IMG/VR virus record: IMGVR_UViG_2823670853_000002
Strand: one strand, 5' to 3'
Source: a virus
Lineage: Duplodnaviria; Heunggongvirae; Uroviricota; Caudoviricetes
DNA length: 64,000 nucleotides
Positions 3,444-5,524 of the stretch are shown here, piece after piece; within the stretch, counting starts at the first letter, position 1; every line of letters starts with the position of its first letter. The translations under genes were made by a program, and so were the position numbers. Under the pieces are notes generated by a model, which was not told the origin of the DNA, searched no databases, and worked only from the letters and a program-made list of their open reading frames with translations.

Positions 3444-3824
3444 CTACTCCGCAGAACCATACAATCTACGTAACGTGTCGGCGACAGAAGATACAGATAT
3501 CTCGCCAGTCGCAGCGCCTACGGTAAGGTCTGCCAGTTCAGGTGAATCAAATACCTGCACCCCGTTACGGCGTAGAAATAGAAGCGCACTGTTTAGCGCG
3601 GTACGCTTATTGGCATCATTGAATATATGCCCTCTCGCTGTAGCCACCAGGTAGGTGGCGGAGACTTCGAAAAGGTCGGTGATCTCTTCGTAGGCAACTC
3701 TGGCCTGAACTCTCCCGATAATGGCCTCTGCCCTACCCGGATCAGACATTCCCGGCAGGCCGCCGTAGCGGCTTATATTCGCATCATGAAGCGCAATAAG
3801 TTCTTCCGGTGATATATGCCTCAT
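3444..3824 (-). CDS. doc: Doc toxin (Fic/Doc family, translation-inhibiting kinase)
   Basis: 126 aa, [22 protein letters not shown]...[12 protein letters not shown] Fic/Doc core motif; to my recollection near-identical to P1 Doc; start overlaps phd stop. Confidence 0.95.
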
Positions 3825-4045
3825 TATCGGTTAACCAGTTCCTTGTTGGTGGAGTCCAGGGTGTCAAACAGGGATGCAAATTCAGCATCCAGCGCCGCTT
3901 TTTTGTAGGCTTCGAAAGTAGCCTTGCTGACAATTACTGCTGGCTCACGGCCTCTGCGGGTGATTTCAACCTCTTCCCCGGCTTCAACATTGTTGAGCAC
4001 TTCAGAAAGGTTGCCGCGCGCGGTACGGAAGTTAATGGATTGCAT
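3824..4045 (-). CDS. phd: Phd antitoxin (prevent host death)
   Basis: 73 aa from [32 protein letters not shown]...; classic Phd/YefM fold sequence; translationally coupled to doc. Confidence 0.95.
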
Positions 4046-4117
4046 AAACACCTCGTGTACTCGTTATGTGTACACAATTATAAACTTCACAGGCATAAAG
4101 CACCAGCACTTTGCAGC

Positions 4118-4507
4118 TTAAATGACCGGACAATCATCAAACTCCCCACTCCGGGCATCATTGATGACATGAGTGATCACACCAAAAACAGCATTACTGC
4201 CCGTGTATCCATCGTCATCTACTGGTAACGCCTCTTTCTTCCCGGTGCTTAAATCCTCCAGGTGCTGGCGCGGATACTTCCTGTATCTCTTTATGCGATA
4301 TTCACCCTCCATAGCGCACACAAGCAGAGAACCATCAACCGGAGTAAGCGAGGAATCAACCACCAGCAAAGCACCCTGCAATATTCCCTCACGGTGATGG
4401 CTGTCTGCCGCCCGCATGAAGTAGGTCGCTGATGGATGCCTGATTAGTTGCTGATCAAGAGAAATTCTGCTTTCAACATAATCCGCCGCAGGAGAAGGGA
4501 AGCCCAT
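4118..4507 (-). CDS. humD: HumD, UmuD'-like S24-family translesion polymerase accessory subunit
   Basis: 129 aa; C-terminal LexA/UmuD-like peptidase core (GALLVVDSSLTPVDGSLLV, EGEYRIKRY); LexA box in its promoter. Confidence 0.85.
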   Translation of the reverse strand: MGFPSPAADYVESRISLDQQLIRHPSATYFMRAADSHHREGILQGALLVVDSSLTPVDGSLLVCAMEGEYRIKRYRKYPRQHLEDLSTGKKEALPVDDDGYTGSNAVFGVITHVINDARSGEFDDCPVI

Positions 4508-4526
4508 AGCGTTTTCACCTCAATAA

Positions 4527-4546
4527 TACTGTTCATTTATACAGTA
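4527..4546. promoter_or_regulatory. LexA (SOS) box in the divergent humD / 4682 ORF promoter region
   Basis: TACTGTTCATTTATACAGTA fits the CTGT-N8-ACAG LexA consensus; 20 bp upstream of humD start. Confidence 0.75.
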
Positions 4547-4681
4547 TACATTAAAGAGACACCTTTGGTGCAAACGCGTTACGTACATCAACCACCGCTG
4601 ATGATTTTGTGCTCTTTGCTACTATTCATCACCAACGGATCAGCGTAACCTCGTTGCCAATCAGTTAATAAGGAATTAGCT

Positions 4682-5254
4682 ATGCCTAATCGCATTCCTC
4701 TCGATCCTGTATTGCCCAAAAATTTTGACTGCACTCCTAACGAGAAACGCTCTAAAGCTCAGCTGGACGCCTGGTGGGACCATCCCTATGGGGTTACAGA
4801 ACATGACGGGAAAATTGTTGTTTATTGTCTGAATGGTGGCGCGTGGGACCGTCCATCCGTGCTTGGTTTGGCAAATAACTATGATGAAGCCTGTGAACTT
4901 GCCGAAAGACAGCAGGCTAGATGGGTGAAAACACGGTCACAGCCGACATTCATGTTTTCAAAAGAACCGCCATTTATACTGGCGAGGATGCCGCAGCGAC
5001 CGGATCATCAACAAGAAATTGTTGCTGAATTTTCCTCAAGGGATGAGATGAATCTCTTCTCATTAAAGCAGGAAGAAAGGGAGCGCGTCGAAGTGTCTCC
5101 AACTCTCGACCACAACCGGATGAACCTGGCCCAACTCGCCTGGTACAGCAAAGAATTAGAGATGTCTATTGCCCGACTTGAAAACGAAAAAGCCGCTATC
5201 CAAGCCCAGCATGAAGCTGTCATTGCCAGGATACGAGAAGTTCAAAACGGTTAA
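4682..5254 (+). CDS. lxr: Hypothetical protein divergent from humD (lxr-like by position and LexA box)
   Basis: 190-aa ORF with coiled-coil C-terminus; no recognisable catalytic motif; shares the LexA-box intergenic region with humD. Confidence 0.4.
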   Translation: MPNRIPLDPVLPKNFDCTPNEKRSKAQLDAWWDHPYGVTEHDGKIVVYCLNGGAWDRPSVLGLANNYDEACELAERQQARWVKTRSQPTFMFSKEPPFILARMPQRPDHQQEIVAEFSSRDEMNLFSLKQEERERVEVSPTLDHNRMNLAQLAWYSKELEMSIARLENEKAAIQAQHEAVIARIREVQNG

Positions 5255-5260
5255 CTACCG

Positions 5261-5524
5261 CTATTTCTTTACGGCATCATCTTTCTGATATGCCGGATCG
5301 CTCCCTTTTGGCAACTGGAGGCTTAACTGCCGGTAGTGCCGTAGCCGTTCCATGAAATAGGTGCGCAGATTCTCTGGTTGCTCGCGGGCTACCTGTTCAG
5401 CTATGACAGGTATGTTCAATCGCTCTTTGTACGCCACACCGCTGGCAGCCAGATCAACGTTAACCTTATCCCGTTCTTCCTGACTTTTAGCTGCAATATT
5501 CCAATCGTACATATCAAATCCCAT
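5261..5524 (-). CDS. hot: Hot, homolog of DNA polymerase III theta subunit (HolE)
   Basis: 87 aa; [43 protein letters not shown] aligns closely with E. coli theta ([43 protein letters not shown]). Confidence 0.85.

What the first reader, a model, noticed from the sequence alone, without database searches (positions are those of the whole stretch)
4508..4681. LexA box in the divergent promoter shared by humD-phd-doc and the lxr-like gene
A near-consensus SOS box lies 20 bp upstream of humD, which is followed on the same strand by phd and doc. If transcription reads through, expression of the toxin-antitoxin pair would be coupled to the host SOS response, alongside the UmuD' homolog and the nearby theta homolog.
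Basis: partly seen in the sequence, partly recalled or inferred. Interest (0 to 1): 0.4.

Follow-up and report, generated by a model that had tools for sequence, protein, structure and literature searches.

The report
Known LexA operator of phage P1 humD
This is the SOS (LexA) operator already annotated in front of the phage P1 humD gene; it is real and conserved, but it belongs to humD rather than to lxr, and the phd-doc toxin-antitoxin pair behind humD is a separate cassette with its own promoter, so any SOS coupling is untested read-through.

Summary
TACTGTTCATTTATACAGTA lies at 4527-4546, 19 nt from the humD start codon and 135 nt from lxr. It is the only site in the window within 3 mismatches of the 20-mer LexA consensus (0 expected by chance).

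The region is 99.1% identical to phage P1. The P1 GenBank record already annotates this site as "LexA binding site in the regulatory region of lxr and humD", so the feature is already known.

- **The box travels with humD, not lxr.** It is kept in P1-like elements that have hot instead of lxr upstream. It is also kept in pECOH89/Cyrano-type elements and in about half of the distant HumD homologues in other Enterobacteriaceae. Three distant Lxr homologues without humD have no box.
- **phd-doc is a separate cassette.** It carries its own promoter and operator in the 72-nt spacer. Homology to IncF plasmids that have phd-doc but no humD starts at the humD stop codon, and none of 27 distant humD homologues examined has phd-doc downstream.
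- **Read-through is possible but untested.** No terminator lies between humD and phd, whereas Cyrano/pECOH89 humD has a strong one. The E. coli dinB-yafNO operon is a proven precedent for such read-through.

I found nothing that shows read-through here or that it has a function. Ordinary, low interest.

The parts
4527..4546 (.). LexA (SOS) box TACTGTTCATTTATACAGTA; in the humD sense TACTGTATAAATGAACAGTA
   Evidence: unique in the window, 0 expected by chance; the homologous P1 site is annotated as a LexA binding site; the arms are nearly invariant in 26 unique P1-like upstream variants, and C3T4G5/C16A17G18 are 21/21 in distant humD homologues.
4543..4548 (-). -10-like hexamer TATACT overlapping the left arm of the box; the probable humD promoter -10 (predicted only)
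   Evidence: best promoter-like match on the humD strand. The same hexamer follows TTCACA-18 in the hot-humD type and TTCAAA-17 in Cyrano/pECOH89 (sequences, read by eye). Reference P1 has TGTACT here.
4568..4574 (-). Candidate -35 (TTTGCA or TTGCAC) with a long 19-20 nt spacer; weak, predicted only
4118..4507 (-). humD, the UmuD'-type (pre-truncated) S24 peptidase-fold protein, 129 aa
   Evidence: Pfam Peptidase_S24; phrog_811 UmuD-like, profile positions 21-140 of 140, so the N-terminal segment is absent.
4046..4117 (-). 72-nt humD-phd spacer. It holds the phd promoter (-10 TATAAT at 4077-4082, annotated -35 at 4100-4105) and GTAC-centred palindromes (TGTGTACACA at 4067-4076 and GAGTACAC at 4055-4062). 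No terminator.
   Evidence: Pphd annotation in P1; sequence; no terminator-like site, and the fold is no more stable than shuffles (z +1.0); homology to the IncF phd-doc cassette begins at the humD stop codon.
3824..4045 (-). phd antitoxin
3444..3824 (-). doc toxin (Fic/DOC); its start overlaps the phd stop
4682..5254 (+). lxr ('LexA regulated function' by annotation only), divergent from humD; no known domain
   Evidence: no Pfam match; phrog_6164, unknown function; distant homologues without humD have no box.
5261..5524 (-). hot, homologue of the DNA polymerase III theta subunit (context only)

Best explanation
The site is the LexA operator of the humD gene of a P1-type phage-plasmid.

In undamaged cells a LexA dimer on the palindrome covers the -10/start region of a rather weak humD promoter. 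After DNA damage LexA is cleaved, and HumD is made. HumD is a ready-made UmuD' that can partner host UmuC. (The binding and the promoter position are inferred. The sequence, its conservation and the gene identities are shown.)

The box is part of a portable 'box + humD' module. lxr merely happens to lie on the other side of it in one subgroup of P1-like elements, and its LexA control is unproven.

phd-doc downstream is a second, self-contained module. It is transcribed mainly from its own Phd/Doc-autoregulated promoter inside the 72-nt spacer. Because P1-type elements have no terminator at the junction, some SOS-induced humD transcripts probably continue into phd-doc. I read this as a by-product of module juxtaposition rather than a selected coupling.
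For: **The box itself**
- It is unique in the window, with 0 expected by chance.
- The identical position is annotated as a LexA binding site in P1.
- PMC9603915 calls humD a LexA-regulated SOS gene.

**Conservation with humD**
- In 78 P1-like IMG/VR loci (26 unique upstream variants) the arms are nearly invariant while the centre and the upstream flank vary.
- The box is kept in both architectures: lxr divergent from humD (33 loci) and hot followed by humD without lxr (35 loci with phd-doc).
- About half of the distant short HumD homologues (50-75% amino-acid identity, other Enterobacteriaceae species) carry a box with at most 5 mismatches. It lies 15-19 or 42-45 nt before the ATG, and several carry tandem boxes.
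- Cyrano and pECOH89 also carry the box.

**lxr**
- Three distant Lxr homologues without humD have no box within 300 nt.

**Autonomy of phd-doc**
- P1 annotation places the phd promoter in the spacer.
- Of 1423 plasmids with a match, only 477 carry the whole doc-phd-humD-box stretch. In an evenly spaced sample of 60 records, about half end at query position 678, which is the humD stop codon.
- The IncF example pEC743_1 has phd-doc next to hsdM, and its homology to the window starts at the stop codon.
- The P1-like phage phi456 has phd-doc without humD.

**humD without phd-doc**
- None of 27 distant loci examined has phd or doc downstream.
- Cyrano and pECOH89 have a strong intrinsic terminator right after humD.

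**No terminator in the window spacer**
- The terminator scan finds nothing there.
- The fold is no more stable than shuffled sequence, z +1.0.
- The spacer has 19 G against 11 C. As I recall, Rho-loading sites are C-rich and G-poor, so this does not look like one.
Against: - No LexA binding or expression data could be obtained here. The primary papers (Lobocka 2004, McLenigan 1999) are not in the held library.
- The humD promoter is only predicted. Its -35 is poor and its spacer is 19-20 nt. The P1 record places the predicted humD promoter elsewhere, inside lxr.
- 'By-product' is an inference. About one third of matching plasmids (477) keep humD-phd-doc together with an unchanged 72-nt junction, which is also compatible with a useful coupling.
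- About half of the distant humD homologues have no recognisable box.
Confidence: 0.72

Rival explanations
1. humD-phd-doc is in effect an SOS-inducible operon: LexA cleavage raises transcription of the toxin-antitoxin pair from the humD promoter in addition to its own autoregulated promoter. This coupling would be functionally meaningful, as in E. coli dinB-yafNO.
For: - The genes are on the same strand with a 72-nt gap and no intrinsic terminator, and the spacer is G-rich rather than C-rich.
- The junction is unchanged in most P1-like loci and in 477 plasmids.
- A direct precedent exists: yafNO is transcribed both from the SOS promoter of dinB and from its own YafN-autoregulated promoter (PMC2814082).
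Against: - phd-doc with the same spacer is found more often without humD than with it.
- humD with its box is found without phd-doc, followed by a terminator or at what look like prophage ends.
- D6-type elements carry an extra 140-aa ORF between humD and phd.
- The predicted humD promoter is weak.
- Co-transcription raises toxin and antitoxin together, and feedback at the phd promoter would compensate (inference).
- The searches run found no paper reporting such read-through.
Confidence: 0.2
2. The reading in the P1 annotation. One LexA site serves as a shared operator for the divergent lxr and humD promoters, so that lxr is a true SOS gene.
For: - The P1 GenBank record labels the site 'in the regulatory region of lxr and humD' and names lxr 'LexA regulated function'.
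- The box is the only operator-like element in the 174-nt intergenic region.
Against: - The box is 135 nt from the lxr ATG.
- The best lxr-strand promoter-like elements are poor. One (TGcTACTAT at 4617-4625) lies about 70 nt away from the box.
- The box persists where lxr is absent.
- Lxr homologues L177, L180 and L181 without humD have no box.
- Homology between the lxr-type and hot-type upstream regions breaks about 12 nt beyond the box. The box therefore lies on the humD side of the recombination joint.
Confidence: 0.2
3. A chance AT-rich palindrome with no regulatory role.
For: CTGT-N8-ACAG alone is not significantly enriched: 2 found against 0.69 expected, and 12 of 100 shuffles reach 2.
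Against: - A 20-mer match within 3 mismatches has an expectation of 0.00.
- The arms are kept while the centre and flanks vary.
- The same element sits at the same distance before humD homologues of only 50-75% amino-acid identity.
Confidence: 0.02

Closest known systems
LexA binding site of phage P1 between lxr and humD (GenBank AF234172/AF234173/NC_005856; Lobocka et al. 2004 genome paper, not readable here)
   Same: Same position, same 20-mer and same flanking genes. The region is 99.1% identical.
   Different: Three substitutions in the intergenic region. One lies immediately 5' of the box: the window has TATACT where reference P1 has TGTACT. Otherwise it is the same feature.
E. coli umuDC-type SOS operator, with the LexA box overlapping the promoter of a UmuD-family gene (recalled from general knowledge)
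   Same: A consensus-type CTGT-N8-ACAG box lies immediately upstream of a UmuD-family gene and overlaps a -10-like hexamer.
   Different: HumD starts as the already-truncated UmuD' form and has no umuC partner gene downstream. The promoter has not been mapped.
E. coli dinB-yafNO(-yafP) operon: an SOS promoter of a translesion-synthesis gene reading into a type II toxin-antitoxin pair that also has its own autoregulated promoter (PMC2814082)
   Same: The layout is the same: a LexA-boxed mutagenesis gene, then a co-oriented type II toxin-antitoxin pair with its own promoter and palindromic operator, and no terminator in between.
   Different: For yafNO, mitomycin-C induction dependent on the dinB promoter was shown experimentally. 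For humD-phd-doc nothing has been measured. The toxin families differ (RelE-like YafO against Fic/Doc). The humD and phd-doc modules are demonstrably separable in nature.
phd-doc addiction cassette of P1 and IncF plasmids
   Same: phd, doc and the 72-nt promoter/operator spacer are 97-99% identical to hundreds of plasmid copies.
   Different: In IncF plasmids the cassette lies next to a type I restriction-modification gene. It has no humD and no LexA box upstream.

Membership tests
Enterobacterial LexA (SOS) box | Palindrome CTGT-N8-ACAG within the 20-mer TACTG(TA)5CAGTA | tested here: met
   17 of 20 positions match and both arms are exact. It is unique in the window with 0 expected.
Enterobacterial LexA (SOS) box | Position overlapping the promoter or transcription start of the regulated gene | tested here: inconclusive
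   A -10-like TATACT overlaps the left arm, but the -35 is weak with a 19-20 nt spacer. No start site has been mapped. The P1 record predicts the humD promoter elsewhere.
Enterobacterial LexA (SOS) box | Conserved in front of orthologous genes in diverged genomes | tested here: met
   Arms nearly invariant in 26 unique P1-like variants. A box with at most 5 mismatches is present in 19 distant homologues plus Cyrano and pECOH89. C3T4G5/C16A17G18 are 21/21.
Enterobacterial LexA (SOS) box | LexA binding in vitro, and derepression on damage or in lexA(Def) | not testable with these tools
   Needs EMSA or footprinting and expression assays. PMC9603915 only cites humD as LexA-regulated.
UmuD'-like protein (HumD) | S24 peptidase fold, UmuD family, lacking the N-terminal segment removed by RecA-mediated cleavage | tested here: met
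   Pfam Peptidase_S24, E 5.7e-9. phrog_811 UmuD-like, matched from profile position 21 of 140. 129 aa, beginning MGFPSPAADY.
Type II toxin-antitoxin operon phd-doc | PhdYeFM antitoxin followed by an overlapping Fic/Doc toxin, with its own promoter and palindromic operator | tested here: met
   Pfam matches. Stop and start overlap at 3824. TATAAT and GTAC palindromes in the spacer. The cassette occurs with the same spacer in IncF plasmids lacking humD. Autoregulation itself was not tested.
SOS-driven read-through into a toxin-antitoxin pair (dinB-yafNO type) | LexA-controlled upstream gene, a co-oriented toxin-antitoxin pair, and no terminator between them | tested here: met
SOS-driven read-through into a toxin-antitoxin pair (dinB-yafNO type) | Damage-induced toxin-antitoxin mRNA that depends on the upstream SOS promoter | not testable with these tools
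   Shown for yafNO (PMC2814082). No data for phd-doc were found in the searches run.
Shared divergent SOS operator (lxr and humD) | The box co-occurs with lxr independently of humD | tested here: not met
   Three Lxr homologues without humD have no box within 300 nt. The box is retained where lxr is absent.

The most novel reading that the evidence does not exclude
In P1-type phage-plasmids, DNA damage raises phd-doc transcription by read-through from the LexA-controlled humD promoter, as at dinB-yafNO. The addiction module would then be SOS-responsive, for example buffering or triggering Doc activity when the host is damaged or the prophage is being induced.
Probability: 0.25. Interest if true: 0.35.

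Novelty: already known. Interest (0 to 1): 0.15.

Why it matters
It matters little. The box has been annotated in P1 for about twenty years, and humD is cited as an SOS gene.

What this analysis adds is modest:
- The operator belongs to a portable humD module and not to lxr. The name 'LexA regulated function' for lxr therefore rests on position alone.
- The humD/phd junction is a module boundary.

If read-through into phd-doc were shown, it would be a second example of the dinB-yafNO arrangement, on a widespread family of resistance-carrying phage-plasmids. It would not be a new principle.

Tried and rejected
- **Primary literature.** I tried to read Lobocka 2004, McLenigan 1999 and Chikova 2007 by PMC id, DOI and PubMed id. 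None is held.
- **Literature searches** for humD/phd read-through or P1 SOS transcriptomics found nothing relevant. One further search failed on a term that was too short.
  - The P1vir RNA-seq paper does not mention these genes.
  - The Ref paper measured humD, phd and hot only after thermal induction, and gives no values in its text.
- **Standard promoter scan** found no sigma-70 site in the intergenic region. A relaxed scan of my own gave only weak candidates, so the promoter assignment stays a prediction.
- **Second CTGT-N8-ACAG at 30536-30551.** It has a GC-rich centre (CTGTCGCGGCTAACAG) and no TA flanks. I judged it a chance match.
- **Heterology index.** I considered computing one but did not, because the reference site table would have come from memory.
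- **Terminators.** I found no intrinsic terminator, and the base composition does not suggest a Rho-loading site between humD and phd.

Full report
**What is there**

The window around the finding is the pdcA-doc-phd-humD / lxr / hot segment of a P1-type phage-plasmid. It is 99.1% identical to phage P1 over 2.3 kb. The genes, in window coordinates:
- doc, 3444-3824, - strand
- phd, 3824-4045, - strand
- humD, 4118-4507, - strand
- lxr, 4682-5254, + strand
- hot, 5261-5524, - strand

Pfam confirms Peptidase_S24 for HumD, PhdYeFM for Phd, Fic/DOC for Doc and DNA_pol3_theta for Hot. Lxr has no Pfam match and falls only in a PHROG of unknown function. HumD aligns to the UmuD-like PHROG from profile position 21, so it is the pre-truncated UmuD' form.

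**The observation**

The interval 4508-4681 is exactly the humD-lxr intergenic region. TACTGTTCATTTATACAGTA lies at 4527-4546, with both TACTGT/ACAGTA arms exact.
- It is the only site in 64 kb within 3 mismatches of the 20-mer consensus, with 0.00 expected.
- The 16-mer pattern CTGT-N8-ACAG alone would not be significant.
- It lies 19 nt from the humD ATG and 135 nt from the lxr ATG.

**Already known**

The P1 GenBank record carries a protein_bind feature, 'LexA binding site in the regulatory region of lxr and humD', at the homologous position. It names lxr 'LexA regulated function' and annotates a separate sigma-70 promoter for phd between humD and phd. A 2022 survey of P1-like phage-plasmids calls humD a LexA-regulated SOS gene (PMC9603915). 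The primary papers could not be read here.

**Is the box functional, and for which gene?**

In 78 P1-like viral contigs there are 26 distinct upstream variants. The CTGT/ACAG arms are nearly invariant, while the centre of the box and the sequence about 12 nt or more upstream vary.

Two main architectures exist:
- lxr divergent from humD, as in this window: 33 loci.
- hot directly upstream of humD on the same strand, without lxr: 35 loci with phd-doc downstream.

The box is kept in front of humD in both.

Outside the P1 group, phage Cyrano and plasmid pECOH89 carry a humD homologue (about 84-86% nucleotide identity) with a perfect-armed box at the same distance.

Short HumD homologues of only 50-75% amino-acid identity occur in Citrobacter, Kluyvera, Klebsiella, Enterobacter, Yokenella, Trabulsiella and others. 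About half of them carry a box with at most 5 mismatches, 15-19 or 42-45 nt before the ATG, and some carry it in tandem. Positions C3T4G5 and C16A17G18 are 21/21.

Conversely, three distant Lxr homologues that are not next to humD have no box within 300 nt. The box therefore belongs to a portable 'box + humD' module. LexA control of lxr rests on position alone.

**Promoter**

The standard scan finds nothing in the intergenic region. A relaxed scan gives TTGCAC-19-TATACT or TTTGCA-20-TATACT on the humD strand, with TATACT overlapping the left arm of the box. The same TATACT follows better -35 elements in the hot-humD type (TTCACA-18) and in Cyrano/pECOH89 (TTCAAA-17); I read these by eye from the sequences.

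This is the classical geometry for LexA repression, but it is a prediction. The P1 record instead places its predicted humD promoter about 440 nt upstream of the box, inside lxr.

**The humD-phd junction**

The 72-nt spacer contains a perfect TATAAT (4077-4082) and GTAC-centred palindromes just upstream of the phd ribosome-binding site. It has no terminator-like hairpin. Its fold is no more stable than shuffled sequence (z +1.0). It has 19 G against 11 C; as I recall, Rho-loading sites are C-rich and G-poor, so this does not look like one.

By contrast, the Cyrano/pECOH89 humD homologue is followed at once by GGCGGTGCATTGCACCGCC-TTTTT (z -3.0).

**But phd-doc is an autonomous cassette**

A search of plasmid records with doc-phd-humD-box hit 1423 plasmids.
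- Only 477 carry the whole stretch.
- In an evenly spaced sample of 60 records, about half match only query positions 1-678. That is doc, phd and the spacer, ending at the humD stop codon.
- About 12% of the sample match only humD plus the box.

In the IncF plasmid pEC743_1, phd-doc lies next to hsdM, and its identity to the window starts at the humD stop codon. The P1-like phage phi456 has phd-doc without humD. D6-type elements have an extra ORF between humD and phd. None of 27 distant humD homologues examined has phd or doc downstream. The junction is a module boundary.

**Mechanism proposed**

1. LexA represses humD at this box (inferred, strongly supported).
2. DNA damage derepresses it, giving a ready-made UmuD' (inferred).
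3. phd-doc is expressed mainly from its own autoregulated promoter (from the annotation, and from knowledge of the phd-doc system that I recall rather than tested).
4. Some SOS-induced transcripts probably run on into phd-doc, because nothing stops them (inferred, untested).

The E. coli dinB-yafNO locus shows that exactly this two-promoter arrangement can operate. There, mitomycin-C induction of yafNO came from the dinB promoter, while the proximal promoter is autoregulated by YafN (PMC2814082). Because the two modules are so often found apart, I rate a selected functional coupling as unlikely, and measurable read-through as possible.

**Verdict**

The feature is already known and of low interest.

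Noticed in passing
window 4547-4548; P1 locus L001 (AF234173) homologous position: The base immediately 5' of the box differs. The window and all 79 matching sites in the IMG/VR P1-like loci read AATGTA|T[A/G]CTGT, giving a -10-like TATACT in 77 of them. Reference P1 alone reads AATGTG|TACTGT, giving TGTACT. If TATACT is the humD -10, laboratory P1 carries a down-change at its most critical base.
   Followed up: partly
window 3444-4121 versus 4118-4560; plasmid hits H25-H84: doc-phd-spacer and humD-box behave as two separable modules that join at the humD stop codon. About a third of 1423 matching plasmids have both, about half have only phd-doc (for example IncF plasmids, next to hsdM), and about 12% have only humD plus the box (pECOH89/SSU5-type).
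   Followed up: yes
window 4985-5011 (- strand) and 4967-4985 (- strand), inside lxr: The P1 GenBank record places its predicted humD promoter here, antisense inside lxr and about 440 nt upstream of the LexA box. A weak terminator-like hairpin (TCGCCAGTATAAATGGCGG + TTCTTTT) follows it directly.
   Followed up: no
L087, L088, L089, L090, L092, L100, L101, L112 (upstream of humD homologues): Citrobacter, Kluyvera, Klebsiella and Pseudocitrobacter humD homologues carry two LexA-type boxes in tandem, a few nucleotides apart, which suggests tighter SOS control than in P1.
   Followed up: no
L093-L096, L098, L110, L089, L113 (first ~60 nt after the humD homologue stop): Short direct repeats such as TGGGGCATGGGTGGGGCA follow the gene. 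In some loci (L096, L098) a convergent ORF of about 400 aa follows. This looks like a prophage end with integrase arm-type sites, so humD may sit at prophage borders there.
   Followed up: no
L083 (phage D6) 2355-2777; L077-L079: D6-type elements have an extra 140-aa ORF of unknown function inserted between humD and phd on the same strand. A TATAAT-containing promoter-like sequence precedes it.
   Followed up: no
L177, L180, L181: Distant Lxr homologues (51-61% identity over the N-terminal ~130 aa) occur in other viral contigs without humD and without a LexA box. The C-terminal third of Lxr is a separate PHROG (phrog_10721), so Lxr may be a two-part protein.
   Followed up: partly
window 30536-30551: A second CTGT-N8-ACAG match (CTGTCGCGGCTAACAG) with a GC-rich centre and non-consensus flanks. 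Probably a chance match.
   Followed up: partly
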